This document shows, piece after piece, positions 17,518 to 63,307 of a stretch of 64,000 bases of DNA (within the stretch, counting starts at the first letter, position 1; every line of letters starts with the position of its first letter). Source of the stretch: a virus (taxonomy: Duplodnaviria > Heunggongvirae > Uroviricota > Caudoviricetes); the IMG/VR virus record IMGVR_UViG_3300031867_000033, positions 344 to 64,343 of that record. One strand, 5' to 3'. Made by a program: the position numbers and the translations under genes. The notes beneath the pieces were generated by a model. It saw nothing but the letters and a program-made list of their open reading frames with translations, made no database searches and was not told where the DNA came from.

Positions 17518-18414
17518 TTATGGAAGAATTTTTATTTTATAAGCATTACTCTCTAAATCTGCGATTTGTATTAATCCCTTGTCTTGTAACCTTTTTATTC
17601 TTTCTCGAATTTTTGCAATTGTTGTTCCAGAATGATAACAACCTGCTGAATTTACTTTATACATCCAAATAAAATCAATTCCAAAAAAATATATTTGAGA
17701 AAATTCTGCCATATGTTTTTTAATATACCAAAGCATCATGCAATCTTCTTTAGCAATTAATATTTCTTCGTTGGATAGATATTTAAAAATATCTGGAATA
17801 TAATTAAATTCTAGATATGGAGCAGCCTTATCATTAATATCTACCGGCGCAAGAAAATGCTTCTCCTTTAATATTGACTAATATTTTGTTATTGTATTAT
17901 ATTTTATATTATCAATATAATTATTTAAATGCTTAGCAGTAGCATTTTTCTTTAAAATTAAATACTTATTTTCCTATTTATTATAGGATGACATTAAATA
18001 ATTGAGACAATAAATGTAAAATAATTTATCATTAAATAGATATAAAATATCATTGATGGTTATTTCTTTTTCTGCCTCTTCTTGTCTTAATGCCTTCGCT
18101 TTATCTGCTTCAACTTTGACTTTTATTGATGCTCGTATCGTTTCATCGTTATTCCATCTTCTATTATATCCACTTGGAAAATAGCAATCGTAATATATGA
18201 TATAATAATCTTCCCAATAATCTAATTCTTCTTTTGCAACTTCTTTAAGTAATTCAAAGGTAAAATTTTCTTCTCCTTCTATCTAAATAGTCATATCAAT
18301 AAATTGGTTTGAATGACCATCGTAATGCTAATCTAATCGACCTCCACATTTTTTTGATTGACCTACATAAATTTTACCATTAAGCTTGTTTGTAATTTTA
18401 TATATACCTACCAT
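17518..18414 (-). CDS. GIY-YIG homing endonuclease (298 aa, 5 in-frame TAG)
   Basis: RBS GGAGGTGTCAAT-ATG; N-terminus MVGIYKITNKLNGKIYVGQS; continuous to TAA at 17518 only with TAG as sense; track shows only the C-terminal 73 aa. Confidence 0.7.
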
Positions 18415-18597
18415 ATTGACACCTCCAAAATATATAAAATTTTAAATAAAATTTTATATCTTATATAAATATTATACCATATTTTTATGAATTTTTCAAA
18501 TATTTGATTTTAATAAATAGTAAAATTTTATTAAAAATTTTGTAAATAAATTAAAATTTTTAACAAAATCATATATCTAATTAAAAATTCTTATAAG

Positions 18598-18828
18598 TTA
18601 AATTAAGCATCCCTTAATTTCAACCATTTCGGAAGGATTAAACTCTTCCCAAGAACTATTAGCATCATCATATTCACACACACTCTTCAATTCCACATTC
18701 ACAAAAACTCCAACAGTAGTTACATAGACATAACCACTTTTTGAAGTATTATCTATACAAACTAAAGTATAGCCATCAGGAGTTTCAAAAATATCACCTT
18801 TGGTTAAATTCATAATTTTCTTCTTCAT
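18598..18828 (-). CDS. hypothetical protein
   Basis: ORF track. Confidence 0.5.
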   Translation of the reverse strand: MKKKIMNLTKGDIFETPDGYTLVCIDNTSKSGYVYVTTVGVFVNVELKSVCEYDDANSSWEEFNPSEMVEIKGCLI

Positions 18829-18842
18829 AAATAATACCTCTT

Positions 18843-18900
18843 TTCTTTATTTTCTATATATATTATACTAAAAATTCTTTAAAAATACAAATATTTTTTT
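18843..18900 (-). promoter_or_regulatory. conserved promoter-like element copy
   Basis: TTTCTATATATATTATACTAAAAATTCTTTAAAAATACAAATATTTTT. Confidence 0.5.
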
Positions 18901-18920
18901 GTTAAAAGAAATTTTTAGTT

Positions 18921-19044
18921 TACAATGCGCCGCGGTACCATAAATCTTTACTTCGCCAATTGTCCAAAAAATTGGACTCGCGGCGCATTACAAGCGAAAG
19001 ATAAAATTAAAGCGCCACGATTGGGCCGCAGCGCATTATAATTT
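18921..19044. repeat. cluster of GC-palindromic elements incl. nested GTCCAAAAAATTGGAC hairpin
   Basis: TACAATGCGCCGCGGTACCATAAA ... GGACTCGCGGCGCATTACAAG ... AAAGCGCCACGATTGGGCCGCAGCGCATTATAA. Confidence 0.55.
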
Positions 19045-19830: not shown

Positions 19831-21584
19831 TATATTCCCTCCATCTCCAAATTTTTATCAATTCTTGTTCTTATATCGTTAAATCTTGTGCGATAAAGAT
19901 TACCATTTTTAAAATAAGGATAAAAAGCACTAATTTTTTCAAAGTTCTTAAATTCTTCTTCATTTAGCTCGCTCTTAACTTTAAGTTCTCCATTTTCCCA
20001 ATAAGGAACACAAAGTCCTTTAAGCGATTTCTTACTACTAAAATTCTTAGGGTCTTTAAAAATTTGAAGTTCTTTTCCGTCAGAAGTCTTTCCATATGTT
20101 GCTTTAATTGCAATTGAAAAAGTATCACGAGTAAAAGGCTTAAGTTCCTTTTTTTCCTCTATTGCTTCCATAGAAAATGAACCAACGCCAAGACTTACAC
20201 AATTTGCTGCGAATCCTTTAAGAGCAAGATTTTCATAAATTTTCTTTGCTCTCTGAATTGTTATAGAGTCTCCATAAACAGCTTTAACTTTGGGATTTAA
20301 TTCTATATAGCCTTTAGAATTTTTATTTCCTCCAAAAAATTCATAAAGGGTTTCAACCATTCCTTTATCCTCATAAGTTGTGTCTCTAAGAAATTTAACT
20401 TCCCATTCCCAAGCAGTTTCATTTCTTCCATCTATATATGCCCTTTGATATATCTTATAAATACCATCAAAGTGCATATATTTAACTCTTATTTCAAAAT
20501 CATGCCCATAGGTATCAAGAATATATTTTACATGACTATCTGCCCAATCTAAAAGTTTTTCCTCAATTTCATTCATTGCGTGATCGTGATATATTTTAAT
20601 TATATCATTCATATCTATTACAGGAATTCCACAAAGTGCAGCAACTGGCTCTGCACTATCATGCCTTAGCCCAATAAAACCTTCATGCTCTTCAATTTCT
20701 TTCTTTAAACTAGGTAATACTTCCGTAGCGATACGCCAAAAATTATAGCTATCTGCAACAGCTGCAAAACTAGTCTTAGGATAAATTTCAGTTAAAAGTC
20801 TACGATAAGTTTCTCTTTCATCACCGCAGATTGCAAAATCAGAAGTCATAACAGAATGTTCAGTAGAAGTCAAACCTCCAATTATAACAGGTTCAACATC
20901 TTTATAAATTTCCTTAATTTCAAATCTTGCTCCAACAGTAGAAGAATTATAAAAAGTAGTAAGCCAACCAAGTGAAGAATTAACTGCGCTTTCATAACTC
21001 TCTTGACCACGCATTGAAAAATCACAGCATCCTCTCTTCCAAGTGTCTACATTATCAACTGTCATATTATAGTAATATTTAACAATCTTTCCATATTCAT
21101 ATCCAACAGTTGCACTTATAGAGGGATGCCATATCAGACATGAAAGCAAACTTTCAATGCTTTGTGCTACAAAACAAAAATCTTTATGTGTAGAGCGAAT
21201 TTCAATTGCAGGAACTTGCATAGGAACGAGAGTTCCCTCAGGGAGTGCATTAACTTCAATAGGAAGATAGCCAAGATCATGAAGTGCTAAAACTTTTTCT
21301 AAAGTTTTGTCTACTACTTCTTTAGTATATCCAAGGCCATTCATTAAAACATCATAATATTCTTGTTTAATTTGTTCCTTTGAAACATCAAAAAACGTTT
21401 CATTAAAATCTTTATATAAATATTTGTAACAAAAACTACTAAGTCCAAAAAACACCATTTTATCTATTTTTTTCAATCTAGATGAACGTGGAGTTAAATA
21501 AGAAGTAAAATGAACTAATTCTGGTCTATATTGATTTAGATGAGTAAGCTTATAAAAATCTGTCTTTAACATTGAATTATACAT
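19830..21584 (-). CDS. nadV: nicotinamide phosphoribosyltransferase (Nampt/NadV-like)
   Basis: 584-aa protein of the Nampt/NAPRTase family by overall sequence; RBS AAGGAG; start overlaps stop of upstream endonuclease gene. Confidence 0.65.
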   Translation of the reverse strand: MYNSMLKTDFYKLTHLNQYRPELVHFTSYLTPRSSRLKKIDKMVFFGLSSFCYKYLYKDFNETFFDVSKEQIKQEYYDVLMNGLGYTKEVVDKTLEKVLALHDLGYLPIEVNALPEGTLVPMQVPAIEIRSTHKDFCFVAQSIESLLSCLIWHPSISATVGYEYGKIVKYYYNMTVDNVDTWKRGCCDFSMRGQESYESAVNSSLGWLTTFYNSSTVGARFEIKEIYKDVEPVIIGGLTSTEHSVMTSDFAICGDERETYRRLLTEIYPKTSFAAVADSYNFWRIATEVLPSLKKEIEEHEGFIGLRHDSAEPVAALCGIPVIDMNDIIKIYHDHAMNEIEEKLLDWADSHVKYILDTYGHDFEIRVKYMHFDGIYKIYQRAYIDGRNETAWEWEVKFLRDTTYEDKGMVETLYEFFGGNKNSKGYIELNPKVKAVYGDSITIQRAKKIYENLALKGFAANCVSLGVGSFSMEAIEEKKELKPFTRDTFSIAIKATYGKTSDGKELQIFKDPKNFSSKKSLKGLCVPYWENGELKVKSELNEEEFKNFEKISAFYPYFKNGNLYRTRFNDIRTRIDKNLEMEGI

Positions 21585-22470
21585 ACATTCCTCGCTCCTT
21601 TAAATAATCTAAACTTATATTTTTTATATCATAATAAGGTATTGTAATTAATTTTATACCATTTATACTACAATAATCTTCTTTTTTTAAATCATAACGC
21701 TGCTATCTTTTTAAATAGTTTTCTCCTCCAAAGTATTCAATTGCCTAATAATGTTGAATACCATTAAATTCAATTAAATTAACAAGCTATCCCTATGAAT
21801 TATATATTCCAAAATCAAAACGTAAAGAGATTTTATCACCTTTTAAATCTGGAAAGGTTATTTGTGTCTTATAACTAATATTATTATTTTCAAAAATTTC
21901 TTTCAATTTTAATTCTCCCGCAGATGAAGAGCCACACCATTGACATCCATTGAAGTCTTGATTGATAATATGATCTCGTCTAACTGAATATAGGGTAGGA
22001 TTTCCACAGTTACACTAAATCCAATAATAAATTGAACTGCTTTTATTGAACTATGGATTTTCATTTCTTTTTATAACTTTATATCTTCCAATTTGCTATC
22101 CTGATAAATCCATAAATTTTCCACCTAAACAGCCACAACTTTTTACTTCTCCAGAAGTTAAATTACTTCCTTTAACAATTACAGGTTCAGGATTACCACA
22201 GTCACATAAACATTTCCAATAAATACAGCCATTCCTTCTTTCTTTTATCTCTTCTATAACTTTTAATTTATTGAATTTCTTTCCTGTAAGATCTATTTTT
22301 CTTCCTAAATGAGAATATTTTAAGTCTGGATATTTTTCAATAATTTTATTCCATATTTTATAGCTATATCTTTGGTATCCCATTTTAAGGAAAAAATCTT
22401 TTTTTGTCTAACTTTCATTTATTAGTTTTTGTAACTATTCTTTACTATAATTCTACCATTTGCTAGGCAT
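21578..22470 (-). CDS. HTH + Zn-ribbon-repeat + DUF559 (PD-(D/E)xK) endonuclease-like protein, family copy D (~297 aa, 14 in-frame TAG)
   Basis: RBS TTAGGAGGGG; repeats YWKCLCDCGNP...KSCGCL; C-terminal RFDFGIYNSQGQLVNLIEFNGIQHY; track has only fragment 22096..22383. Confidence 0.6.
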
Positions 22471-22650
22471 AATTATCCCCTCCTAATTCTTTTATTTATT
22501 TCGTAAAAGTTATTATAGAAATATCTTTTTTTCTTTATTTCTATAATAATTATAGCAAAAATTCTTTAAAAATACAAATCTTTTTTAAAAATTTTAACCT
22601 ATATTACGCCGCGGCGCACTGTAGAACAAATACTAATAGTATAAAATATA

Positions 22651-23130
22651 TTATAAAAAATCAAAATAATCTTTTTTGACCCTTCTTTTATTATATTCTT
22701 GTTTTAAATCTTTTACTAAACTTTTAGTTCTTTGTATCTTATCTTGTTTATCTTTTGAAACTTGTTTAATAAACTTTGCTTTATCTCTAAAAATAGCTTC
22801 TTCCTCTGGGGTTAATCCTAATTCTATCAATTTACTCATTAATTCATTTAATTGTACTTTTAATTCATCTAAGGTTAATGATCCATCTTTACAATTGGTA
22901 TAAAAATAAAAATGATTATCTGAATCATAAACAATATAACCTTTATCTATCAATTCAGTTTTCGCTCTCTTTGCAGTACTTTCACTTACGTCATAACTTT
23001 TCTAAAAGTCTTTTGGTGAATAAGCAAAGTCATAATTATCCTAATTTTGAGCAAAATATAAATATAATTTTAATGCACTTGGAGTTAAATTCTTTGCTGC
23101 TTCTTGAAGTTCTTCAATAGAAATCTGCAT
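22651..23130 (-). CDS. winged-helix DNA-binding protein (replisome-organizer / Rep-N-like), 2 in-frame TAG
   Basis: RBS CAGGAGGG-ATG at 23128-23130; ALKLYLYFAQNQDNYDFAYSPKDFQKSYDVSESTAKRAKTELIDKGYI. Confidence 0.55.
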
Positions 23131-23369
23131 AAATGGCTTCCCTCCTGTTTTATCAATACGTTTTTTAATCGTACCATTATGCTAATTTGCATACGTCATA
23201 TTAACAACTCCCATTTTTTATTTTATTTACTCCTCTTCAATAATGAATAATAATAAAGATAGGAGGAGGTGGGAGTAAACCTCCTTTTAAATAGAGTAGC
23301 TAATTCTATTTCCTATCATATATTATGTAATAATTATATCATAAGAATCTAAAAAAATCAATCATTTTT

Positions 23370-25584: not shown

Positions 25585-25586
25585 AA

Positions 25587-40725: not shown

Positions 40726-40837
40726 CCTTTCGCTTAAAATTGTTGCGCCGCGATACCATAATTTCTTAATGCCGCGGCGCGTTGTAAGAAAGAGGTGTAA
40801 AGTTAAATTTGGCGGAATAAATTCTGATTATATATCT

Positions 40838-41724
40838 TTCCATTCTTCATCTGTATATTCTTTTATGTCTCTTTTTCTTCTTGGCAATTTATATCCATCA
40901 CACCATTTACGTACTGCATTATCTGACACCCCATATTGTTTACCAATAGAAACAAAAGAATTAGTCCGTATCATTTCCTTTAATTCCTCTCTTAATGGGC
41001 AGCGAGAACTTGACGATGGAGAGTATTCTGTTTTATAAGAAATTTTATTTATCTAATAAGATAAAAACTCTTCATCTGTTATTTCAGGAATAATTTCATT
41101 TTCTCTTTGCCTTCTCCAGTAATATCCACAAAATTTATGATTGTATGAAAGATCATTATAAAAATTATTTTTATTTTTATCTGTTAAATGGAAAAAAGAT
41201 AAAATCTCTTGAATATTTTTAAAACTTTTTAATGGATATTCCTCTTTTACATAAGCGACATAACTAGAATAATTTCCACCTTGTTCTTTAATTTTTTCTG
41301 GTTCTACATCAAAACGTTTTAAAACTCTAGTAATAGTTGAACCTGAGCAGTTAAAAATTTTTTCTAGCTATTCACATTTATATCCTTCTAACCATTTCTA
41401 ATATATAGCCTAATAATCATACTATGAAGCAGTAAAATTATTACCGCCAGAGCCATAATTATATCCTTTTTCTCTATTAGTAGAATCAAAATATTCAATC
41501 CAATAAACTTCTCTATCATTTAATTCTTCTTTGGAACATTTTTCAATAATTTCAAAAGAAAAATTTTCTACACCATATTTTCTCATTGCTCGATGAATAT
41601 AACATTCATCTTTATGAGTTTTTGTATCTGATATATGCTATCTCCATCTTTTTTCGATGTTAATAGACTATCCAACATAAATTTTCCCATTAATCTAATT
41701 AGTAATTTTATATATACCTATCAT
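40838..41724 (-). CDS. GIY-YIG homing endonuclease #2 (~295 aa, ~8 in-frame TAG) with C-terminal HTH
   Basis: RBS CAGGAGGTTTT-ATG; MIGIYKITN(Q)INGKIYVG(Q)S; C-terminus KQYGVSDNAVRKWC similar to GIY-YIG #3. Confidence 0.6.
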
Positions 41725-43041: not shown

Positions 43042-43416
43042 AACTCACCTCATGACCGTTTATGGACTTGCCGGGCACCGCCCCCGGGTCCGCAAAAAAC
43101 TATTTCATATTATCTACACGTTTAGTTGCGTCATTTATCTATTCTTTACCCTGCACCGACGCAACAAGTTCAGAGTTATGTCAGCCTAAAATACTTTACC
43201 TACTCGGCAATAGAATAAAGAACTATTTCTAAAAATATAAATCAATAGTAGTTATAATGAAATAGTTAAAACGAAACCACTAATGATACCGCGGCACATC
43301 GTCCGCAAAAATTAAAAAATTAAGCAGCGTTTATTTTGCTTTATGCCGTAAAGTGGACATCTACTACGTGCAATATGCTTTCATTTCCACGTCGATTCTA
43401 AAAAAAAAACAAGCCC

Positions 43417-44287
43417 TTAAAATTTACTTAATAAATAATCTTTATCTAACTTATCAAAATCCCAATAAGGAATTTCAATTAATTTAATATTATTTTTATT
43501 ACAATATTTTCTTTTTTTATCATCATATATTTGCCTTTCTTTAAATTTTTCTTCGCCATTGGAAAAACGCATTGGAGTATAATGCTGTTCACCCTAATAT
43601 TCAATACAAGTATTGTAATCAGGCAAATAAAAATCAAAGGGTAAAGGCTTTGACTTTCCTATTAAATCTTCAAATTTTTTCTACTTATCATATTTTATAT
43701 TTAAATTTTGTAATATTTCTTCTATTTTATTTTCTCCTTTAGAAACTAAACAGCCGCAAGAAGAAGTATGCCCATTACAAACACTTATTTTAGATTTTAT
43801 ACATTTTTTCCCACAATCGCATTGGCATTCAAGGAGAGTTTTATTGTTTTCGTCTTTAAAAATTCTTAATATGGTCAACTATCCAAACTTTTTGCCCACT
43901 ATATTTTTATTAAGAGACTTACCACTAATTAAACAACCACAAGATTTTGTTTTTCCCGCCGTTAAATCTGTTCCTCTAATTGATTTTACTCCTCCACATT
44001 CACATTGGCATATCCAATATGTCTGCCCTGAACTTCCTATCCTAGTTTTATCCATCTCTATTACTTCTAATTTTCCATAGTGATTACCTCTTAAATCTTT
44101 AACCCTACCTCGTAAATGTTTAATTGATATATTATATTTTTCTGAAATTTCTTCAACTATTGATTTCGATGCTCCTTCTTTATATCCTATTTTTCTTAAT
44201 ACTTCTGTATAGGTTAAAGAATTATTAATAATTATTTCAAGGGATTCTTTAGACAAAGATTCATATAATTTCATTTTTATTCCTCCT
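43417..44287 (-). CDS. HTH + Zn-ribbon-repeat + DUF559 endonuclease-like protein, family copy A (~290 aa, >=3 TAG)
   Basis: RBS AACAGGAGGAATAAAA-ATG; WICQCECGG...KSCGCL; C-terminus PFDFYLPDYNTCIEYQGEQHY...IKLIEIPYWDF; track ORFs 43879..44466 + 43681..43878 are same frame joined by TAG. Confidence 0.65.
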
Positions 44288-46383: not shown

Positions 46384-47448
46384 TTAAGAGTTTATTAAAC
46401 TAAGTAAATAGTCTTCATTAAGTTTATTATAATCCCAATAAGGAATTTCTATTAATTTTATGTTATGGGACTCACAATAGTCTCGTTTTAAAGAATCATA
46501 TTCTTGCTAAGTCTTTAATCTTTCTTCTCCACCAAAATGGTCAAAACTTTCATAATGCTATGAACCCTAATATTCAATTAATATATTCTAATCTGGTAGA
46601 TAAAAATCAAACTTAAGCTATTTACCTTTTCCAGTTAAATCTTCAAATGAATACTAATCTAAAAACTCTATCTAAAGAGAATTTAAAATATTTCTAACTT
46701 TTAATTCTCCTCTTGATTTAAGACATCCACAACTCTATACTGTGCCAGCTCTAAGATCAGGACCCGAAACTGATTTTAATTTAGGATTTCCACAATCACA
46801 TTTGCATAACCAATACGCTTTTGGACCTCTTGTATAGTCCCTATCTACTACTGTAAGCATACCAAAACGCTAATTATATAAATCTCCTACTATTGAACAT
46901 CCACAACTCTTTGTATGTCCATTTTTTAATGCATTTCCATCTACTTTTAAAATGGTCTACTAACTACAGTCACACTAACACTTCCAATATACTCTCGATA
47001 AATCACTCTTATCTCTTCCTAAAACTGTTAAATGTCCAAATTTCTATCCCGTTAAATCATTATAATGCTACTCATGTATTAAACAGCCACAACTCTTTGT
47101 ATTTCCTTGCGTTAAATGATGACTGCTACATATCTTTATATTATGTTCTGGACATGAACAAATACATTTCCAATATGTATAAGTAGATTTTTTAAGATTA
47201 CTATTTTGAATTTCTTCAGGTGTAGCTTTAGCAATAACTGTTAATCTTCCAAAAGTCTATCCTATTAGATTATGTTCCTTACTTAAATGAGAAATATCAA
47301 TATTATACTTTTCTGCTATTTTTTTAATAACTCGAGTATACGTCTATGAATATCCCAATCTTTTTAAACACTCTGGTATAGTTTTACTTGTTGTTAAAAT
47401 TTCTTCCAATTCATCCTTAGAAAAATTTTCATATATAGGTTTTTTCAT
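46384..47448 (-). CDS. HTH + Zn-ribbon-repeat + DUF559 endonuclease-like protein, family copy B (~354 aa, ~16 in-frame TAG)
   Basis: RBS AGGAGGACTAAT-ATG; three YWKCxCxCP...KSCGCL repeats; C-terminus LKFDFYLPD(Q)NILIEY(Q)GS(Q)HYE; entirely absent from track. Confidence 0.6.
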
Positions 47449-49650: not shown

Positions 49651-49771
49651 TTTATTAATGCTCTACCAATTTGAGCTAATTTTCTAAAAGAAGAAAATAA
49701 AAGATTTGAACTTTCAACACTAAATAAATATTTAAAAATTTGCTGAAATGGTCTTTAATTAAATTTTTAAA

Positions 49772-50904: not shown

Positions 50905-51579
50905 ATAACTAGATCGAAAACGTCAGAATCGGACTGCCCCTCCGCATCCCTGGTGCTAGCTAGTGGAATTGCACCACTTAATACTTTTAGCTAACAAATG
51001 CGGCGTGCTACCACTACACCACGTTCTCGTTAATTTTAGTCGGCGATACCAGACTTGAACTGGTACGAGTTTTACCTCGAGGGATTTTGGTCTTGATGGT
51101 TGGTGCTGCCCCAACAATTAACTCGACACTGTTCGACACCAAGTAAGTCCCTTGTGTCTGCCTATTCCACCAATCGCCGAAGTTACTAGACAGTTAAATT
51201 TAAAGGACTTGAACCTTCTCTAAAAATTATACGAAAAATTTTTATTTATCCAATTAAATTTTGCTGTAACTGTCTAAATGGTTTTACATTAAGCCGCGGC
51301 TATATGGGAACCGCTAAACCATATATCTTAATGTAAAGTCACCTATATCCGTAATGCTCGGATTTCTCCGCCTTGAGAGAGCGGTGTTCTACTTTTAAAC
51401 TAATAGGCGAAAGACTAGGCAGTTAACTTTGAAGGGCTTGAACCTTCTATAAAAATTATACAAAAATTTTTAATTAACCATTTTAAATTTGCTGTAACTG
51501 TCTAAATCACCCCAACCGGTTATGCTCCGATGTCTTGAGGTTGAAATCCTCATATTCTACTATTAAACTATGGGGCGAA

Positions 51580-51656: not shown

Positions 51657-52102
51657 TCAAATCGGTACCAACCAAGTACTTTATGCTATAGCCGCTGTGA
51701 ATGGAGTTTAAAACCACCTTCGTAGAGGTTGATGGTTCCCATTACTGGTTCTCGCAAAAGATTGCTTTAGAACTAAAGCCGTCTCCTATAGCTTCCCAAT
51801 GGACCGTCAGGGCTTTGCTCCCTGCACCTCCAGCTTGCAAAGCTAGCGTTCTACTAAATGAACTAACAGCCCAAATCAAGACAGCTTTAATCAATCAGTT
51901 CCAAAAATAACAGATTCTTTAAAATTGCTGTCGCCGTCTTTAATCGCGGATACGAGATGTGCGCTCGTGTCTGAGGAGCATGAATCCCCTATGCTAACTT
52001 CTACACCAATCCGCAAAATTAGTCAAGACACTTTTAAAAAATTTTAATAGCCAAAAATTTTCAAATTAAATATTGCTGTATGTGTCTTTTAATTATTTAA
52101 AT

Positions 52103-53034
52103 CTATTCCCATTCTTCATCTGAATAAGAATTTATATCTTTCTTTTTTCTAGGTAATTTTTCAAAATCACACCATTTACGTATAGAATTATCTGAAACTC
52201 CATACATTTTACCTATTTCAGTAAAAGGTTTAGTCCGAATTAGCTGTTTTAATTCTTTGCGAGAAGGTCTAGTAACGGTTCTCTTTGTTAAAGACATTTC
52301 TAATTTTTCTCTATCTGTATAAACTTTAGTCTATATCATTCGATAAGATAAAAATTCTTCATCAGTTAATTCTTTTATTGGGATATTATTCTCATTTAAA
52401 ATTTCCCAATAATATCCTAAAAACCTATATCCTGCATAAAGTGAACTATAAAAACTATCTATCTATGATTTATTTAACTAAAAGAAACTCATTATTTCTC
52501 TTATATTAAACACTCTTAATGATATTTTATCTTCTGATAAGGCAACATACTTATTCTTCTAAGTTACACGAGAACGTGTCTAATCTTCATCTATTCCATA
52601 ATATCGTAGAGCATTGGTTATTACAGAATCAGCACATTTATATAAATCCTACAATTCTTTACAAGATTTTCCTTCCACCCATTTTTCATAGATTTCTTTA
52701 TAATTGTAAAGATTTCCACCTGATTTTCCACCAAGAAGAATATTATATCCTTTATTTCTATTTGTGGAATCATAATATGAAATCCAATAAATTTCTCTAT
52801 CATTTAATTCTTCAACCGAACAATATTCAATAACATCATATTTAAAATTTTCAATTCCATATTTCTTCATGGCTGAATACAAATGATTATCATCATGTCT
52901 CTTATTTTCTTTTGCTTTTGCCTTATGTACGCCCCATCTTTTCTTTAGTTGGACGCTCTATCCAATATAAACTTTTCCATTTATAAGATTCTCAATCTTA
53001 TAAATGCCACAATTCTACTATTCTACTCTTGTCT
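52103..53034 (-). CDS. GIY-YIG homing endonuclease #3 (~310 aa, ~8 in-frame TAG) with C-terminal HTH
   Basis: CGIYKIENLINGKVYIGQS; C-terminus KMYGVSDNSIRKWC; track shows fragments 52649..52882 and 52103..52297. Confidence 0.6.
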
Positions 53035-53226
53035 CCATTTTACATAACCTCACTTGATTATTTTATTTACGCTTTAAGCCGCGCATGAGCTAATTTAATG
53101 GTTTCAGGGGCCCAGTTCGGACGGGGCTTCGAGAGTTTTAGAGACTCACAGACTACCTTCATATCTTACCCTGAATAGCAAACGTCTGGTATCGAACCAA
53201 ACACTTCATATTTCTATGCGTGCCCA

Positions 53227-56169: not shown

Positions 56170-57460
56170 TAAGTAAAATCAAATAGTTCAAACTCTACTG
56201 TGTTATTAATCTATTAATATTATTCAATAGACAAACTAACCATGTTATGGTCTTAAAGAGTACCACAAACACTCTTTGCAGCAATGTTTATTGCTGCATT
56301 TATGTCTCTATCCATTATGTTTCCACAAGAACATTTAAACACTCTATCTTTAAGAGTTAATTTAATTTTATTTCCACAACAGCTACAGGTTTGACTAGTA
56401 TAAGCAGGATTTACTTCAAATAGGTCTGTACCAAACTTTTTGCATTTCCATTTTAAAGTTTCAGTAAATCTGCTTAATGGATTTATTTGAATTAGCCTTC
56501 GTCTATTCTTATTAGACATTCTAATCTTAGCATTAGTTAAATCTTCTATCGCAACATTATTATTTCTACACAATCTTGTAGTAGTTTGTTCAATAAAATC
56601 TTTCTTTAAATTTTCAAATCTTTCATAAGCTATTTTTACTTTATTATTTAGTTTATTCCAATTATTTGAATTTTTAACTTTCTTATCTCTTAAAGACTTT
56701 AATTTATTTATTCTGTAAAATTCTCTTAATACTGTTTTAGGATAGTTTATAAATTCACCTTTAGAATTTGTCATAAAATTCTTTATTCCCCAATCAAGCC
56801 CTATAGTAGTTGTTTCTTGTCTTTCTGGCTCTTCAATTTCATAAGAACCAGTTATGAACCATTTACCATTAATATAATGATATCTTGGCTCTTTAATTTC
56901 TTTAATATTGAATTTCTCAATATACTCATTATCTACTACTATTTTTGACATCCCCTTAACACTTAGCTCTCTTGAATGAGGTAAATTAATACCTTTTTTA
57001 TCAATTTTATAAGTTTTAGAGGTAATGTAGAATGATTGTCTATTTGGATTATATTTGTGAAATTTTGGTTTTCTTCCTAATTTCTTATAGCATCTATCAA
57101 CTGAATATTTATAATTCATAATAATACCTTTAACTAAATAAATTGGTAAAGATATCTCCTAAACTTCATAGTCAGTTAATAGATTTTTTTCATTATAACC
57201 TACTAAACCGAATATGTTAGTTTTAGGTAAATTATCTTGATATTTTGCTACTAAAAAATTTCTCATAATATGAGAATATTTACAGTAAATCAATAATATT
57301 TTCTCTTGTTCCTTTGTTGGATAAATTCTAAATTTACAGCCTTTTAACATGATTTCACCTCCTATAAATATAAGTAGTAAATTTATTTTATATTTATATA
57401 ATATCATAAATCTGATTTGAAAACAAATATTTCATTATACATTATAATATTAACCTGCGC
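56170..57460 (-). mobile_element. IS200/IS605-family TnpB-only element, copy 2
   Basis: Shared end sequences with copies 1 and 3. Confidence 0.65.
56253..57407 (-). CDS. tnpB: TnpB, 384 aa, two track ORFs in the same frame joined by one TAG (57159-57161)
   Basis: 57159..57407 (N-terminal HTH-like part) and 56253..57119 are in frame; the 13 intervening codons are open; C-terminal Zn-finger CSCCGN...CSCG and RuvC-like DRDINAAINIA. Confidence 0.8.
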
Positions 57461-57567
57461 CGCGCTACCAATTTTTGATAAAATTGGTAAACTTTAGAAG
57501 CGGTAAAAATCTAACATAAAAGTACTGTGAATAACATCGCAACGCTTTGTAGGTATCATTTCAATTA

Positions 57568-58413
57568 TAACTCATCGTCTTTAATCTAAGAAATTCTTTC
57601 TTCAATCTCTTGTCTTATACTCTAATCTATATATTCTTTTTCATCCTCTTCACAATCTATGTATTTACTATCAATATAAAAATTTACATTAGTTAAAATA
57701 TAATGTTTAATTTTCTTATGTTTACTATTTAATTCAATTTTTTCATAAAAATCAATTAATTTATATTTCTATAAAAGTAAAAGAGATTTATAAATTGAAA
57801 TATGATTTTTCTATTCTTTCTTCTTTCCTAAAAACGTTCTTAAATCCATCATTGAGAAATCAAAAGATTTATACATTCTTTCTATTCCAACTTCTCTATA
57901 GGTTAATAAAAACTGATAAAGCCTAAAATCCTATTCTGAGAATTTTAATTTTTCATTCATAATTTTTAAAGTTTCTTTTGGGATATTTCTGGACTTGTGC
58001 CCAGGTCTAGTTTCATAGTATTCGCAAGGTCGTTTTTTTCTAATCGTCCAAAGCTTTAACCAAATTTTATAATCTTCTTCTTTTGTTAATTCCCAAGAAG
58101 ATTTTTCTGGATAATCTTTTTTCATTATCTCTTTTCTTAACTTTTTTGCTTCTTCTGGTTCCTCTCCATTGTTTCCATAAATTATTTTTCCATTTCTTTC
58201 GAGTTCCCACCAGTATTTTTTAATTGAATTAACACTTAAATCAATGGTTCTTGATATTTCAGAAAGATTAATATTTTTATGCTGAAAAACTCTTTGCTAC
58301 ATATTAGGAGGATTGCCACCTAGACATACTAAATAATTAAATAATTTTTGAGAATTATGGCTTATATCATGCTAGTCTCCCATAGTCTTTAAGCCTTTTT
58401 CATAAATACTCAT
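57568..58413 (-). CDS. iteron-adjacent winged-helix (Rep-like) protein #2, 281 aa, 7 in-frame TAG
   Basis: RBS GAGGTGATAAA-ATG; KLFNYLVCLGGNPPNM(Q)(Q)RVFQHKNINLSEISRTIDLSVNSIKKYWWELERNGKI; stop TAA 57568-57570; track has only a 64-aa piece. Confidence 0.55.
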
Positions 58414-58469
58414 TTTATCACCTCATTTATTATTTCTATTATATAAGTAGCAAAATTAATAAATATGTC

Positions 58470-58680: not shown

Positions 58681-58689
58681 CGACGCGAC

Positions 58690-58950: not shown

Positions 58951-58982
58951 AAAGCACCGTGGATAATACCGCGGCGCAAAAT

Positions 58983-60120: not shown

Positions 60121-61345
60121 GTGTTATTAACTTAGTTCGTTAAACTAAGCAACTAACCATGCTATGGTTTTTAAAGAGTGCCACAAACACTCTTCGCAGC
60201 TATATTTATAGCCGCATTTATATCTCTATCCATTTCAAAACCACAAGAGCATTTAAATACTCTATCTTTAAGAGTTAATTTGATTCTATTTCCACAGAAA
60301 CTACAGGTTTGACTAGTATAGACAGGATTTACTTCATATAAATCCGTTCCAAACTTTTTACATTTCCACTTTAAAGTATCAGTAAATCTACTTAAAGGAT
60401 TAATTTGAATTAGTCTTCTTCTATTTTTATTAGACATTTTAATTTTAGCATTAGTTAAATCTTCTATTGCTATATTATTATATCTACACAGTCTAGTAGT
60501 TGTTTGTTCTATGAAATCTTTCTTTAAATTTTCAAATCTTTCATAAGCTAATTTTACTTTATTGTTTAACTTATTCCAATTGTTTGAATTTTTATTTTTC
60601 TTATCTCTTAAAGATTTTAGCTTATTTATTCTATAAAATTCTCTTGTAACACTTTTCGGATAATTTATAAATTCACCACTAGAACTTGTCATAAAGTTCT
60701 TTATACCCCAATCAAGCCCTATAGTAGTTAAACTGTTCTGCTTAACAGGTTCAGAAATATTATAGCTGCCGGTAATATACCATTTACCAGATTCATATTT
60801 AAACCTTGGTTCTTTTATCTCTAATATATTAAACTTAGTTATATATTTCTTATCAACAACTATTTTTGATTTACCTTTTACCGAAAAATTTCTAGCAGAC
60901 GGTAATTGAATTTTAAAATTTTTAATATTAAGATTCTATGAAGGTAAATAGAATGATTGTTTATTCGGGTTATACTTGTGGAATTTTGGTCTCTACCCTA
61001 TCTTTTTATAAACTCTATTTACGGAATTGGCATAATTATAAAGAACGCCTCTATATAATCGCTTAGGAAGTGATATTTCTGTATTAAAATCTTTTATAAG
61101 ATTTTCTTCATTATACTTAATAATTCCAAAAGAGCTTACATTAGGTAAATTATCCTAAAATTTCTCTACGAGAAAATTTCTCATAATATGAGAGTATTTA
61201 CAATAAATAAACAAAATTTCTTCTTGTTCTTTAGTTGGATAGATTCTAAATTTACAACCTTTTAACATTTGATTTTCACCTCCTATTGTAATATATTAAG
61301 TCTCTCACTTTAAATATATTATAACTTAAAACAGAGATAAAATCA
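60121..61345 (-). mobile_element. IS200/IS605-family TnpB-only element, copy 3, inserted into 5' end of MFS gene
   Basis: Right-end motif TGTTATTAACT...AACCATGCTATGGT and left-end motif shared with copies 1 and 2. Confidence 0.65.
60171..61268 (-). CDS. tnpB: TnpB, ~366 aa, 3 in-frame TAG
   Basis: ATG at 61266-61268 after GGAGGTGAAAATCAA; MLKGCKFRIYPTKEQEE...; TAGs at F(Q)D, G(Q)R, S(Q)N. Confidence 0.75.
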
Positions 61346-61795
61346 AATATTTGACATGGCTAATTCTCTATTTTTCAATAGAGCATAGGTCATATCATAA
61401 TCCTTAAACTAAGGATCCTCCCCATTTCAGATTCACTTGAATCCTACTCCATTTCTGGATGACCGTCGAACCTTCTCCTGTTCGGAGCTTGGCTGCTGAT
61501 TGTCGATTACATTAATATTTAGGTTTGCACCATATATTATCTAATTATTTCTTTCTACTTTCGTAACATTCACGCTTAGTTGTATTTCAAACTTACGTTG
61601 TAGTATAATTAGCTTTACGACTTCCCAGCAATTAAAGGAGTTATTCGACACTAATTACTTAGTGAAGTGGCAATTACTTACCATTTATTTCTTTTCATTT
61701 AATTCCTCCTTTTAATTTAAAGCCTTAATCTACAATGCGCCGCAACATCATAAAATCTATCAAACATGATAGGGCGGCGCAATGTAAGAATTAAT

Positions 61796-62329
61796 TCAAA
61801 TAAAATTTTCTTTAAAATATGTTTTTGAACAGTCAACAAAATAATCAGAAATTCGTTTCCAACAGCGTTGATTTGTACTACCTCGAAAATCTAGTATTCT
61901 TGTCTTTTTTTCTTTCTCATATCGTCCGTCTATTAAATAATCAATATTTCTTAATATTAAAGCAGTATACTCTTTTTCTATATCCTTTCTTGTTTGCAAT
62001 TCTTCAAAAGTATAACCAGTATAAAGTATAATATTCTAGTTATTTTCCTAAGTAATTGGTTTTATAGCTGTAAGAAGTAGTATTATTCCTTCTAAATTTT
62101 TTGGATGTAAAGGATCTCCACCTGAAATTACCAAATTCTTAATATGAGAATTTTCCAAGTTAGAACGAATTTCATCTATTTTTTTATCAAGTGGTATTCC
62201 ATAATTAAAGTCCCAAGCTATTTTATTATGACATTCAGGACATGCATGAGTACAACCTGATACAAATACTACTGTCGATAAACCCCTTGCATTACCTGAA
62301 TCAAAATTAATTATATTTGCTATATTCAT
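61796..62329 (-). CDS. nrdG: anaerobic ribonucleotide reductase activating protein (radical SAM), 177 aa, 2 in-frame TAG; TGA stop
   Basis: GLSTVVFVSGCTHACPECHN (Cx3Cx2C); track ORFs 62048..62329 and 61796..61999 joined by TAG at 62048-62050. Confidence 0.7.
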
Positions 62330-62417
62330 TTTTATTCCTCACTTTTTGATTATAATGCGCCGCGATATCATAAGTCCTATGACTTACAATAAACAGCGCA
62401 TTGTAAAATTTTTAGTT

Positions 62418-63307
62418 TAAATGCTTAACTCTTTATTTAAAATTTCTTCTAATTTTTCTATGGTATTATCTTTATATGTAATTTCATACAATCTAATACC
62501 ATATTTTTTACAATAATCTCGTTTCTTTTGGTCGTATTTTTGCTATTGTTTAAATTTATCAATACCACCAAAATACTCTACACTTCTATAATGCTATTCG
62601 CCCTAATATTCTAAAAGAAAATCATTAATTTTAAAATCAAAAAATAATTTTCCATTTTCTCCCTTTAAATCTTCAAAGCTATATTGAGGAATAAAATCAA
62701 TATTATGCTCTTTTAAATAATTACTAATTATCACTTCATTTTTAGAATGGCGTAAACAATTGCAATTAAAAGAGCGTCTTTCCTGAATAGTATCGCCTCG
62801 AATTACTCCTATTGTATTACATTTAAGGCATATAACATTCCAATATGCACTGTTTCCTTTACCAGATTTTTCTTCATTTAAGGATAAAACCTTTAAATCA
62901 TCAAAAACCTAATTAGTTAAATCTTTAATTCTACCTTTTGTTTTTAAACATCCACATGATTTTACTGCTCCTCTTTTTAAATCTGCCGCCCATACATCGT
63001 GAATATTTCCACAAGAACATCTACACGTCCAAAAAGTTTTTCCTCTTTCTTTGGTTAAGTCTTTATTTAAAAATAAAACTGTTAATTGCCCATAAATCTA
63101 ATTAGTTAAATCTTCTAATTCTCCTTTTTTTGGATAATGAGATATATCTATATTATATTTTTCTGCATATTTTCTAATTAATGGAGCATTGTTAGTTTTT
63201 TTATATCCAAATCTTTCTAACGCTTCTTTCGCGGTCTTTGATGAGGAAATAATTTCAATTATTTCCTCATCACTAAATTTTTCTATTTTACAAATTGCCA
63301 TACACAT
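62418..63307 (-). CDS. HTH + Zn-ribbon-repeat + DUF559 endonuclease-like protein, family copy C (~296 aa, ~6 TAG), between nrdD and nrdG
   Basis: N-terminal HTH (track ORF 63098..63307), WTCRCSCGN...KSCGCL, C-terminal FFDFKINDFLLEY(Q)GE(Q)HY; stop TAA 62418-62420. Confidence 0.6.

What the first reader, a model, noticed from the sequence alone, without database searches (positions are those of the whole stretch)
17518..63307. Ten homing-endonuclease or IS genes in 64 kb, strongly enriched in TAG codons
There are three GIY-YIG endonucleases (17518..18414, 40838..41724, 52103..53034).

There are four copies of an HTH + 2-3 Zn-ribbon repeats (YWxCxCxCG...KSCGCL) + DUF559/Vsr-like PD-(D/E)xK family (21578..22470, 43417..44287, 46384..47448, 62418..63307).

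There are three TnpB genes.

Their placements are classic for homing endonuclease genes: between nrdD and nrdG; next to or inside tRNA clusters; immediately upstream of nadV.

These genes carry many more TAG codons than housekeeping-type genes. Copy B has ~16 in 354 codons and copy D has 14 in 297. Most annotated enzymes have 0-2.

Possible explanations are recent proliferation within a recoded lineage, or TAG-dependent dampening or timing of selfish-gene expression.
Basis: seen in the sequence. Interest (0 to 1): 0.6.

Follow-up and report, generated by a model that had tools for sequence, protein, structure and literature searches.

The report
TAG-rich selfish genes in recoded phage
In a phage that reads the stop codon TAG as glutamine, ordinary genes almost never contain TAG while ten homing-endonuclease and transposon genes are full of it, so these selfish genes can only be made when the phage's own suppressor tRNA works; one such case was already published, and this window shows it applies across several selfish gene families.

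Summary
The window is an accessory region (RNA repair, NAD salvage, tRNAs) of a TAG-to-Gln recoded phage; close relatives sit on contigs of about 179 kb. It holds three GIY-YIG genes, four genes of a Zn-ribbon plus Vsr-like nuclease family, and three TnpB genes, all intact.

TAG makes up 60% of Gln codons in the seven endonuclease genes and 28% in TnpB. In 56 ordinary genes it makes up 4% (8 TAG in 10,131 codons). Seven TAG-recoded loci from related phages show the same contrast.

The signal is mainly depletion. Ordinary genes avoid in-frame TAG about 28-fold relative to their off-frames, while selfish genes sit at roughly the unconstrained frequency.

Pfam DUF559 is not matched, although the fold is Vsr-like. 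The paralogs are old (24-49% identity), so there was no recent burst.

The most likely effect is that translation of the selfish genes depends on the suppressor tRNA and is therefore attenuated or delayed. This is inferred, not shown. Borges et al. described one such case (an intron endonuclease in TGA-recoded phages), so this is a broader new example of a known phenomenon.

The parts
17518..18414 (-). GIY1, free-standing GIY-YIG endonuclease gene, 4 in-frame TAG
   Evidence: Pfam GIY-YIG 31.2 bits, cut-off 22.6. Own consensus promoter at 18499-18471. TAG count.
21577..22470 (-). Copy A of the Zn-ribbon + Vsr-like nuclease family, 10 TAG; overlaps the nadV start by 8 nt
   Evidence: PHROG 559/374/9084 at E 1e-24 to 1e-29. 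Invariant D/E/G/Q/H/D/K residues present. Own promoter at 22577-22549.
40828..41724 (-). GIY2, I-TevI-like GIY-YIG endonuclease gene with HTH, 8 TAG; lies just downstream of the tRNA-Ser/Trp/Thr cluster
   Evidence: Pfam GIY-YIG 45.6 bits. Aligns to the I-TevI catalytic domain 1mk0, E 3e-9.
43417..44274 (-). Copy C of the Zn-ribbon + Vsr-like nuclease family, 3 TAG; its stop codon abuts the tmRNA gene
   Evidence: PHROG hits. 4,715 homologs. AlphaFold model pLDDT 91.7. Top PDB matches are Vsr 1cw0 and 1vsr.
46384..47448 (-). Copy B of the same family (three Zn-ribbon repeats), 16 TAG in 354 codons; downstream of a TAG-free 505-codon DUF2828 gene, with no consensus promoter found between them
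   Evidence: TAG encodes the near-invariant Gln230 column.
52097..53038 (-). GIY3, GIY-YIG endonuclease gene, 10 TAG; 60 nt downstream of the suppressor tRNA and upstream of further tRNAs
   Evidence: Pfam GIY-YIG 34.3 bits. Context.
53099..53175 (-). Suppressor tRNA with anticodon CTA; U1-A72 pair, A73, encoded CCA. The nearest consensus promoter upstream is at 53554-53526.
   Evidence: ARAGORN. Cloverleaf fold. Promoter. Two tRNA(CTA) genes of relative L062 share the same acceptor ends.
62417..63307 (-). Copy D of the Zn-ribbon + Vsr-like nuclease family, 5 TAG; free-standing, starts 5 nt after the nrdD exon 2 stop and lies upstream of nrdG
   Evidence: The site is empty in L054 and L055.
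63404..63639 (-). ORF-less group I intron interrupting nrdD right after the glycyl-radical Gly codon
   Evidence: Rfam Intron_gpI 56.4 bits (gathering score 50), E 2.5e-13, full-length model. P1 with a U.G pair at the 5' splice site. Coordinates.
63313..63403 (-). nrdD exon 2 (WKPRVVNDISNYTPNKARSSDIINRVKHLN, then stop)
   Evidence: The spliced protein aligns to the C-terminal end of T4 NrdD and of 9d3x.
63640..64000 (-). 3' part of nrdD exon 1, which continues beyond the window; the whole exon has 3 TAG
5339..6442 (-). TnpB1 (TnpB-only IS200/IS605-type element, about 5316-6520), 4 TAG
   Evidence: Pfam OrfB_IS605 and Cas12f1-like_TNB. Element limits from the three-copy alignment.
56253..57350 (-). 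TnpB2, 1 TAG
60171..61268 (-). TnpB3, 3 TAG; promoter at 61346-61318 lies inside the conserved element
   Evidence: RuvC D/E/D motifs aligned to TnpB structures.
22651..23214 (-). Member of a multi-copy, TAG-rich winged-helix family (others at 802-1158, 1172-1909 and 57565-58413); together 19 TAG against 20 CAA/CAG
   Evidence: Weak PHROG hits to replication-initiator and DnaD-like N-terminal domains. TAG share 49%. A homolog next to an endonuclease gene in L041 has 4 TAG against 3 CAA/CAG.
61796..62329 (-). nrdG (anaerobic RNR activase), 2 TAG
   Evidence: PHROG 626, E 9e-46.

Best explanation
The window is an accessory region of a phage that has reassigned TAG to glutamine and carries its own CTA-anticodon suppressor tRNA. 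Close relatives sit on contigs of about 179 kb.

Ordinary genes here are kept compatible with both codes. They have essentially no in-frame TAG and never use TAG as a stop. The likely reason is that they must be translated by unmodified host ribosomes before the suppressor has accumulated, or without depending on it.

The selfish genes are seven free-standing homing-endonuclease genes of two families and three TnpB elements. A multi-copy winged-helix family behaves the same way. These genes are not under that constraint and have settled at, or slightly above, the frequency of TAG expected from base composition.

The consequence is that their proteins can only be completed when the suppressor outcompetes the host release factor RF1. 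Yield falls multiplicatively with the number of TAGs, so they are attenuated and probably delayed relative to TAG-free genes driven by the same promoter type.

Shown: the recoding, the gene identities and intactness, the codon contrast, and its replication in other recoded phages.
Inferred: the effect on translation.
Not known: whether that effect is selected for, either to limit nuclease toxicity or by analogy with late translation of T4 endonucleases.
For: - TAG is a Gln sense codon. It occupies a Gln column conserved in at least 90% of 52 family members, and a consensus-Gln column. At other TAG positions the paralogs have Q, K, E, R or N.
- None of the ten genes is interrupted by TAA or TGA. 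Catalytic residues are intact where aligned: all four Zn-family copies, TnpB3 and GIY2.
- TAG share of Gln codons: 4% in 56 ordinary genes, against about 55% expected from composition. It is 60% in endonuclease genes, 28% in TnpB and 49% in the winged-helix family.
- In-frame against off-frame TAG per 1000: 0.8 against 22.5 in ordinary genes, and 25.7 against 21.8 in endonuclease genes.
- 39 of the 63 TAG-free ORFs are under 150 aa, with no function identified here. Probable dispensability alone therefore does not seem to admit TAG.
- The promoter type is the same for TAG-rich and TAG-free genes. About 33 intergenic TTGnnn-N17-TGnTATAAT sites were found, including ones directly upstream of GIY1, copy A, TnpB3 and a winged-helix gene. 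Copy B and GIY3 follow TAG-free genes with no consensus promoter found in between.
- Replication: in 7 of 7 TAG-recoded related loci the selfish genes have the higher TAG share (pooled 93/231 against 117/843, odds ratio 4.2, p=6e-17). In L009 the helicase, primase and Pol III alpha genes have 0 TAG, while the endonuclease gene between them has 5.
- Precedents: Borges et al. and the T4 review.
Against: - No expression data exist, so attenuation or delay is inference only.
- The suppressor tRNA lies behind the same promoter type as everything else. Nothing in the window shows a temporal switch, and any delay would come only from the time the tRNA takes to accumulate.
- Structural and lysis genes of this lineage could not be reached, so it is unknown whether the endonuclease genes look like late genes or exceed them.
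- The endonuclease TAG share (60%) is above one neutral estimate (33% from their own four-fold sites, binomial p=1e-7). That hints at something beyond drift.
- nrdD (3 TAG) and nrdG (2 TAG) show the ordinary/selfish split is not absolute.
- The seven replicate loci represent only about two or three independent lineages.
Confidence: 0.6

Rival explanations
1. Adaptive gating. TAG codons are positively selected in the selfish genes, either by the phage or by the elements themselves. They would hold back nuclease production until late or keep it very low, as T4 does with RBS-sequestering hairpins.
For: - The endonuclease TAG share of 60% exceeds the neutral estimate from their own four-fold sites (33%, p=1e-7). 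In-frame TAG (25.7 per 1000) exceeds the positional expectation (13.9 per 1000).
- Other G-ending codons are rare in these genes (AAG/AAA 42/205, CAG/CAA 7/30), which makes TAG stand out.
- Several TAG positions are kept between paralogs only 36-49% identical.
- T4 precedent for delayed endonuclease translation, and the interpretation of Borges et al..
Against: - In-frame TAG density roughly equals off-frame density.
- TAGs are spread evenly along the ORFs with no 5' clustering (KS p=0.54).
- TnpB reaches only 28%, and copy C has only 3 TAG.
- The base after TAG does not differ significantly from that after CAA/CAG (p=0.11).
- The neutral expectation depends on the model and ranges from 33% to 55%.
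Confidence: 0.3
2. Imported codon usage. The selfish genes circulate horizontally among TAG-recoded phages, and their TAG content and AT-rich codon usage reflect donor genomes rather than any process in this genome. The reader's 'proliferation within a recoded lineage' is a version of this.
For: - Selfish genes have lower GC (25-27% against 32%) and a distinct codon usage.
- Homologs of the same endonuclease family in an unrelated recoded lineage (L009-L012) also have about 50% TAG.
- Shared TAG positions indicate long residence in recoded backgrounds.
Against: - The copies are far too diverged for a recent burst (24-49% identity).
- Most family members in the databases come from standard-code contexts with no TAG, so TAG must have been acquired after entry into recoded genomes.
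- This rival does not explain why resident ordinary genes stay TAG-free.
- It is not exclusive of the main explanation.
Confidence: 0.2
3. The TAG-rich genes simply belong to late transcription units, so the contrast reflects operon-level code blocks as described for crAss-like phages.
For: Block-wise use of two codes is the published norm.
Against: - TAG-rich and TAG-free genes alternate gene by gene.
- GIY1, copy A, TnpB3 and a winged-helix gene each have the same consensus promoter as TAG-free genes.
- Copy B and GIY3 follow TAG-free genes with no consensus promoter found in between.
Confidence: 0.1
4. The genes are decaying pseudogenes and the TAGs are real stops.
For: Under the standard code all ten genes are fragmented.
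Against: - Only TAG interrupts them, never TAA or TGA, over about 3,300 codons of an AT-rich sequence.
- TAG falls on conserved Gln columns.
- All catalytic residues checked are intact.
- A suppressor tRNA is present.
Confidence: 0.02

Closest known systems
Stop-codon recoding as a translational timer in phages (Borges et al., bioRxiv 10.1101/2021.08.26.457843), including their 'Agate' intron endonuclease
   Same: - Phage-encoded suppressor tRNA.
- Standard-code-compatible genes alongside genes that need the new code.
- They report one group I intron endonuclease family, inserted in an early gene, as preferentially recoded (p=1.3e-3). They argue that in-frame stops should prevent its production until late.
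   Different: - Here the codon is TAG to Gln, not TGA to Trp.
- The effect covers seven free-standing endonuclease genes of two families, three TnpB elements and a winged-helix family, not one intron ORF.
- The mosaic is at single-gene resolution behind one promoter type, not in blocks.
- The contrast is shown to be mainly depletion in ordinary genes.
- Lysis and structural genes were not available for comparison.
Delayed translation of T4 homing endonucleases (I-TevI/II/III, segB, Aeh1 mobE) through RBS-sequestering RNA hairpins (review PMC2988022)
   Same: Endonuclease genes are embedded in early or middle transcription units, and the protein appears only late or at low level through post-transcriptional control.
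   Different: The proposed block is at elongation or termination (in-frame reassigned stops) rather than at initiation. No hairpin mechanism was examined here, and nothing is shown experimentally.
Collaborative or trans homing: a free-standing endonuclease next to a gene carrying an ORF-less or defunct intron (T4 mobE with the nrdB intron; review PMC2988022)
   Same: Copy D is a free-standing endonuclease gene starting 5 nt after the nrdD stop. It lies about 100 nt from an ORF-less group I intron in a functionally critical nrdD codon. Related phages have alleles without the intron and alleles without the endonuclease.
   Different: The cleavage site of copy D is unknown. Relatives with an intron at the same site (L047, L048, L056, L057) have no recognisable endonuclease gene downstream. 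The partnership is therefore only a hypothesis.
Vsr-like PD-(D/E)xK nucleases, and by recollection the 'EDxHD' homing endonuclease I-Bth0305I
   Same: The C-terminal domain is predicted to have a Vsr-like fold (top PDB hits 1cw0 and 1vsr, probability 1.0, TM 0.52 normalised to Vsr). It has invariant D, E, H, D and K residues.
   Different: - No Pfam DUF559 or Vsr match; only sub-threshold DUF2726 and RAP hits.
- The motif is D...E-Y-Q-G-x-Q-H...D-x-x-K rather than E-D-x-H-D.
- The DNA-binding part is an N-terminal helical domain plus 2-3 CxCxC...SCGC zinc-ribbon repeats.
TnpB of IS200/IS605 elements (RNA-guided nuclease that promotes transposon retention)
   Same: Pfam OrfB_IS605 and the TNB zinc-finger domain match. 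RuvC D/E/D motifs align to TnpB structures. The three copies share conserved ends.
   Different: No TnpA was recognised among the ORFs that were scanned. The omega RNA and element ends were not analysed. The elements carry the phage's own promoter consensus and use TAG codons, so they are adapted to a recoded phage.

Membership tests
TAG-to-Gln recoded phage (genetic code 15) | In-frame TAG is needed to restore full-length conserved proteins | tested here: met
   Minus-strand ORF coverage rises from 40.7 to 57.0 kb with TAG as sense, against 44.4 kb with TGA as sense. Full-length GIY-YIG, TnpB, NrdG and ADP-ribosylglycohydrolase proteins appear only with read-through.
TAG-to-Gln recoded phage (genetic code 15) | TAG aligns with glutamine in homologs | tested here: met
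   The Gln230 column is conserved in at least 90% of 52 homologs. Copies A and C use CAA/CAG there and copies B and D use TAG. The consensus-Gln227 column is TAG in B, C and D.
TAG-to-Gln recoded phage (genetic code 15) | Phage-encoded suppressor tRNA with anticodon CTA | tested here: met
   tRNA at 53099-53175, anticodon CTA, with a cloverleaf fold. Its aminoacylation identity was not tested.
TAG-to-Gln recoded phage (genetic code 15) | TAG is not used as a terminator | tested here: met
   Stops of 90 minus-strand ORFs: 76 TAA, 14 TGA. Apart from GIY3, whose TAG at codon 312 of 313 is followed by ATA TAA, no gene examined carries a TAG at its C-terminal end.
GIY-YIG homing endonuclease (I-TevI-like) | GIY-YIG catalytic domain above the curated threshold | tested here: met
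   Pfam PF01541: 31.2, 45.6 and 34.3 bits against a cut-off of 22.6.
GIY-YIG homing endonuclease (I-TevI-like) | Catalytic residues (GIY, YxG, Arg27, Glu75 and Asn90 equivalents) | tested here: met
   GIY2 aligns across I-TevI residues 4-91 with these positions conserved. GIY1 and GIY3 were checked by eye only.
GIY-YIG homing endonuclease (I-TevI-like) | Site-specific cleavage and gene conversion into alleles lacking the endonuclease | not testable with these tools
   Only indirect support: relatives of GIY3 occur in the tRNA clusters of other phages.
   No hit even at E<=10 with the isolated domains. Only DUF2726 and RAP at E 0.015-0.1. A few database homologs carry a precomputed PF10881 (DUF2726) annotation.
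   AlphaFold model pLDDT 91.7. Foldseek top PDB hits are Vsr 1cw0_A and 1vsr, probability 1.00, TM 0.51-0.52 normalised to the target. The E-value is only 0.016-0.023 because the query has several domains.
   D214, E225, G228, Q230, H231, D251 and K254 are invariant or near-invariant in the family. All are present in copies A-D and in the stand-alone nuclease upstream of nrdD.
EDxHD homing endonucleases (I-Bth0305I type) | E-D-x-H-D motif | tested here: not met
   The family consensus is IEYQGxQHY with a separate D..K. My knowledge of the EDxHD motif is from memory, and no direct comparison with I-Bth0305I was made.
TnpB (IS200/IS605) | OrfB_IS605 RuvC-like domain plus C-terminal zinc finger | tested here: met
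   PF01385 at 63-64 bits and PF07282 at 80-84 bits in all three copies.
TnpB (IS200/IS605) | RuvC catalytic D/E/D | tested here: met
   GLDWG, IEDL and DRDINAA align with the corresponding motifs of a TnpB-type nuclease structure. ISDra2-type TnpB structures are among the hits.
TnpB (IS200/IS605) | Omega RNA at the right end, and defined left and right element ends | not tested
   Only the limits of conservation were mapped: about 80 nt upstream of the start to about 20-25 nt past the stop.
Group I intron | Covariance-model match above Rfam's gathering score | tested here: met
   RF00028 at 56.4 bits against 50, E 2.5e-13, model positions 1-253, window 63404-63664. It was missed in the whole-window scans.
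Group I intron | Splice sites that restore the host reading frame (U.G in P1, terminal G) | tested here: met
   P1 pairs GUGGCU with GGUCAC. Joining position 63640 to 63403 gives a NrdD tail that aligns to the end of T4 NrdD and 9d3x.
Group I intron | Self-splicing activity | not testable with these tools
   Needs an in vitro splicing assay.
Collaborative homing pair (free-standing endonuclease plus ORF-less intron) | The endonuclease cleaves the intron-less allele at or near the intron insertion site, and the intron protects its own genome | not testable with these tools
   Only adjacency and the existence of intron-less alleles in L040, L042 and L045.

The most novel reading that the evidence does not exclude
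Alternative coding may act as a lock on mobile elements. Endonuclease and TnpB genes carrying up to 16 in-frame TAGs can only be expressed where a TAG suppressor is active. Recoded phages would then hold a semi-closed pool of selfish elements. These elements would be inert if transferred to standard-code phages or hosts, and throttled by suppressor level inside their own phage.

A corollary concerns endonuclease genes lodged beside suppressor tRNA genes. GIY3 lies 60 nt from the CTA tRNA here, and a GIY-YIG gene ends 7 nt before one in L062. Such genes could spread the suppressor, and with it the recoded state, to related phages by co-conversion. The two would then form a mutually dependent selfish pair.
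Probability: 0.2. Interest if true: 0.75.

Novelty: new member of a known kind. Interest (0 to 1): 0.42.

Why it matters
- **Resolution of code use.** In a recoded phage the two codes are used gene by gene rather than only block by block. The genes that depend on the new code in an otherwise code-neutral region are the selfish ones.
- **A testable system.** It offers a natural way to ask how phages, or the elements themselves, restrain nuclease expression. It also lets one ask whether a changed genetic code limits the exchange of mobile elements.
- **Annotation.** Under the standard code all ten genes are fragmented or lost. Scans for homing endonucleases, TnpB and introns in such phages will therefore undercount them badly. 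The group I intron was also missed by a routine whole-window Rfam scan.

Tried and rejected
- **Copy D as an intron ORF, with nrdD exon 2 downstream of it.** Rejected. The Rfam model ends at 63404, before the ORF, and the exon 2 that starts there aligns to the NrdD C-terminus. The candidate 'exon' downstream overlaps a dispersed hairpin repeat.
- **Other group I introns near the remaining endonuclease genes.** None found by motif search, regex or a 6.9-kb Rfam scan. The regions around GIY1, copy A and GIY3 were checked only by motif search.
- **Megablast of 22 kb against GenBank phages.** No match. tblastn with NrdD gave at best 38% identity, so there is no annotated close relative.
- **Empty-site comparisons for copy A and GIY2.** Queries with NadV and the 698-aa protein returned no relatives, or only 33% identity.
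- **Reaching structural genes of this lineage.** A hairpin-motif scan of viral contigs gave only scattered, unrelated single hits. Contexts of family homologs on long contigs showed no recognisable structural genes.
- **A conserved endonuclease-suppressor pairing.** Of 14 GIY3 relatives, three lie in tRNA clusters, and only one of those clusters holds CTA tRNAs.
- **5' clustering of TAGs.** Absent.
- **Base after TAG.** Differs from all codons (p=2e-4) but not from CAA/CAG codons (p=0.11), so inconclusive.
- **Pfam on the isolated nuclease domains.** No DUF559.

Full report
**What the window is**

The 64-kb window is AT-rich (28-38% GC) with nearly all genes on the minus strand. ARAGORN finds 11 tRNAs, including one with anticodon CTA at 53099-53175. 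Treating TAG as a sense codon raises minus-strand ORF coverage from 40.7 to 57.0 kb, while treating TGA as sense gives only 44.4 kb.

The window comes from a 98,360-bp metagenomic contig, ENA ERZ27256863 k141_3536858. The closest relatives found are 178.7-178.9-kb viral contigs that are also TAG-recoded.

Gene content is accessory and early-type. It includes an Rnl1-like RNA ligase, a kinase/HD protein, Thg1, NAMPT, NAD synthase, isochorismatase, a macro domain, a DUF2828 protein, ADP-ribosylglycohydrolase, nrdD/nrdG, a tmRNA and tRNA clusters.

**Check of the observation**

All ten genes exist as full-length ORFs only when TAG is read through, and none is interrupted by TAA or TGA.
- Pfam confirms three GIY-YIG and three TnpB genes above curated cut-offs.
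- The four-copy family has no Pfam hit. It matches PHROG families annotated as homing, HNH or intron-encoded endonucleases.

TAG counts are 4, 8 and 10 for GIY1-3; 10, 16, 3 and 5 for copies A, B, C and D; and 4, 1 and 3 for the TnpB copies. Copy D has 5, and copy A has 10 in 297.

| Gene class | TAG | CAA+CAG | TAG share | Test against ordinary genes |
|---|---|---|---|---|
| Endonuclease genes (7) | 56 | 37 | 60% | odds ratio 38, p=2.5e-27 |
| TnpB (3) | 8 | 21 | 28% | p=1e-4 |
| Winged-helix family (4) | 19 | 20 | 49% | p=6e-12 |
| Ordinary genes of at least 80 aa (56) | 8 | 202 | 4% | reference |

With a laxer gene list, 63 of 80 other ORFs have no TAG.

**TAG means Gln, and the genes are functional**

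In an alignment of 52 members of the four-copy family, Gln230 of copy C is conserved in at least 90% of sequences. At that column copies A and C use CAA/CAG and copies B and D use TAG. The neighbouring consensus-Gln column is TAG in B, C and D.

Elsewhere TAG aligns with Q, K, E, R or N in paralogs. All invariant residues (D214, E225, G228, H231, D251, K254) are present in all four copies. TnpB3 keeps the RuvC D/E/D motifs, and GIY2 aligns along the I-TevI catalytic core. These are not pseudogenes.

**Enrichment or depletion?**

| Measure | Ordinary genes | Endonuclease genes |
|---|---|---|
| In-frame TAG per 1000 codons | 0.8 | 25.7 |
| Off-frame TAG per 1000 positions | 22.5 | 21.8 |
| Observed TAG share of Gln codons | 4% | 60% |
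| Neutral share from four-fold-site composition | 55% | 33% |

Ordinary genes thus exclude in-frame TAG almost completely, and TAG is never used as a stop. They work under either code. Endonuclease genes sit at about the unconstrained trinucleotide frequency.

TAGs are spread evenly along the selfish ORFs (KS p=0.54). The main signal is therefore strong purifying selection against TAG in ordinary genes and its absence in selfish genes.

Of the 63 TAG-free ORFs, 39 are under 150 aa and no function was identified for them here. What seems to matter is probably not whether a gene is essential, but whether it must be translated independently of suppression.

The endonuclease genes also differ in general codon usage. 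They have far fewer G-ending codons (AAG/AAA 42/205 against 362/431) and lower GC.

**Transcription context**

A consensus extended -10 promoter (TTGnnn-N17-TGnTATAAT) occurs about 33 times in intergenic positions on the coding strand.
- GIY1, copy A, TnpB3 and a TAG-rich winged-helix gene each have their own copy.
- Copy B follows a TAG-free 505-codon gene with no consensus promoter found between them.
- GIY3 follows a TAG-free ORF and the suppressor tRNA, again with no consensus promoter found between them.

TAG-rich and TAG-free genes are therefore not separated by promoter type. The mosaic is at single-gene resolution. The suppressor tRNA lies behind the same promoter type, so nothing here shows a transcriptional switch. 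Any delay would come from tRNA accumulation and competition with RF1.

If read-through per TAG were 0.8-0.9, ten TAGs would leave 11-35% of full-length product and sixteen would leave 3-19% (illustrative only).

**Replication elsewhere**

Homologs of the four-copy family occur in 36 viral loci, most of them standard-code. In an unrelated TAG-recoded lineage (L009-L012, L016) the homolog has 5-7 TAG against 3-7 CAA/CAG. In L009 the flanking helicase, primase and Pol III alpha genes have none.

In the closest relative, L041, the ligase, nrdG, methyltransferase and topoisomerase genes have 0 TAG. By contrast, a family member has 9 TAG against 7 CAA/CAG, an HNH gene inside an nrdD insertion has 3 against 0, and a winged-helix homolog has 4 against 3. 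In L062, three GIY-YIG genes in a tRNA cluster have 5:5, 4:5 and 5:4.

Pooled over seven recoded loci, selfish genes have 93/231 and other genes 117/843 (odds ratio 4.2, p=6e-17). The direction is the same in all seven. These loci represent only about two or three independent lineages.

**Age of the copies**

GIY paralogs are 24-48% identical, the four-copy family 36-49% and TnpB 74-84%. Some TAG positions are shared between deeply diverged copies. 'Recent proliferation' is not supported. Long residence in TAG-sense genomes is.

**The nrdD locus**

The nrdD reading frame stops 10 codons after the radical glycine. A small-region Rfam scan finds a full-length group I intron at 63404-63664 (56.4 bits against a gathering score of 50). 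Both whole-window scans had missed it.

P1 pairs GUGGCU with GGUCAC, with a U.G pair at the splice site. Joining 63640 to 63403 gives WKPRVVNDISNYTPNKARSSDIINRVKHLN, which aligns to the very end of T4 NrdD and 9d3x. The intron is 236 nt long and has no ORF. Copy D is free-standing and starts 5 nt after the nrdD stop.

In 18 related phages nrdD carries insertions at five or more sites, including this one in L047, L048, L056 and L057. L040, L042 and L045 are uninterrupted. L054 and L055 have nrdD and nrdG 16 nt apart. Other relatives carry a GIY-YIG gene, methyltransferases, or a different PD-(D/E)xK nuclease followed by a duplicated nrdD 3' end at the junction.

Copy D is therefore a mobile insertion at a hotspot. 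It is a candidate partner of the intron in collaborative or trans homing, but that remains untested.

**The four-copy family**

The architecture is an N-terminal helical domain, 2-3 CxCxC...SCGC zinc-ribbon repeats and a C-terminal nuclease domain. The AlphaFold model has pLDDT 91.7. The top PDB matches are Vsr (probability 1.0, TM 0.52 normalised to Vsr, E 0.016), followed by RAP-domain proteins.

Pfam gives only sub-threshold DUF2726 and RAP hits, not DUF559. The family has 4,715 database relatives. The Pfam family label is not.

**Comparison with known work**

Borges et al. showed that recoded phages keep some genes standard-code compatible and use the new code in structural and lysis genes. 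They reported one group I intron endonuclease in an early gene of TGA-recoded Agate phages as preferentially recoded, with the same timing interpretation.

T4 restrains its homing endonucleases by delaying translation from early and middle transcripts.

The present case extends this to TAG recoding, free-standing endonucleases of two families, TnpB and a winged-helix family. It adds the depletion-versus-enrichment analysis and the replication. I found no prior statement on TnpB or on free-standing endonucleases in the recoding papers I searched.

**Verdict**

This is a broader new example of a known phenomenon, with moderate interest.

The key missing piece is the TAG share of true late genes in this lineage, which I could not reach.

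Noticed in passing
window 63404-63639 (-): ORF-less group I intron in nrdD, inserted right after the glycyl-radical Gly codon. Both whole-window Rfam scans missed it, and it appeared only when 1.35 kb was scanned alone. Its core resembles introns of Lak megaphages and of Enterococcus, Staphylococcus, Listeria and Bacillus phages.
   Followed up: yes
L040-L057 (nrdD loci of related phages): nrdD is an insertion hotspot, with interruptions after residues ~167, ~379-383, ~404, ~540 and ~686 in different relatives. In L042 and L045 a 491-aa PD-(D/E)xK nuclease gene directly after nrdD is followed by a duplicate of nrdD's last 21 codons (81% identity).
   Followed up: partly
window 802-1158, 1172-1909, 22651-23214, 57565-58413 (-); L041 3030-3881: A multi-copy family of winged-helix proteins with weak similarity to replication-initiator and DnaD-like N-terminal domains. 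They are as TAG-rich as the endonuclease genes (49% of Gln codons), and two of the four lie next to endonuclease or TnpB genes. Their function is unknown. They may be another selfish or late-acting family.
   Followed up: partly
L003 2967-4179 (just beyond window position 64000, upstream of nrdD): A TAG-rich three-gene cluster (3, 4 and 6 TAG in 141, 134 and 128 codons). It includes a stand-alone Vsr-like nuclease domain with an ELDGRQH motif. A homolog lies upstream of nrdD in about 11 related phages, most of which use the standard code.
   Followed up: partly
window 43060-43416 (-): Phage-encoded tmRNA (Rfam 52.4 bits, full-length model). It begins at the base after the stop codon of endonuclease copy C.
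   Followed up: no
window 47578-49095 and 49660-49719 (-): A 505-aa DUF2828/DUF7788 protein, with a weak YrlA-like (Y RNA-like) hit (27.9 bits, E 0.08) about 560 nt upstream of its start, on the far side of the promoter at 49231-49204. If DUF2828 is Ro60-related, as I recall, this could be a Ro/Y-RNA-type pair in a phage.
   Followed up: no
window, about 33 intergenic sites on the minus strand (for example 45187-45159, 26386-26358, 15610-15582): A highly uniform promoter, TTGayTTTTTTAAAAATTTTTGATATAAT (extended -10), heads most transcription units, including several selfish genes and the TnpB elements.
   Followed up: partly
window, about 24 sites (for example 34843/34812, 18986/18932, 62362, 61780/61742): A dispersed 22-nt GC-rich element, TACAATGCGCCGCGGTATCATA, occurs in both orientations (24 matches against 1.9 expected). 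It forms long hairpins between transcription units and just upstream of ribosome-binding sites. It may be a terminator, an mRNA stabiliser or a processing site.
   Followed up: partly
window 51339-51409, 51507-51577, 51944-52015 (-): Three further tRNA-like genes were found by Rfam but not by ARAGORN. Conversely, the CTA tRNA and tRNA-Cys were found by ARAGORN but not by Rfam. This suggests unusual tRNA structures in the cluster.
   Followed up: no
window 3539-3960: An 18-nt periodic repeat (15 or more copies) lies inside the 298-aa gene at 3178-4074, which encodes a hexapeptide/beta-solenoid repeat protein (Pfam YdcK repeat, Hexapep).
   Followed up: no
L062 4788-5536; window 52097-53175: GIY-YIG genes lie immediately beside CTA suppressor tRNAs in two related phages: 7 nt upstream of one in L062, and 60 nt downstream of one here. 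This could allow co-conversion of the suppressor gene. Other relatives of GIY3 are mostly not near tRNAs.
   Followed up: partly
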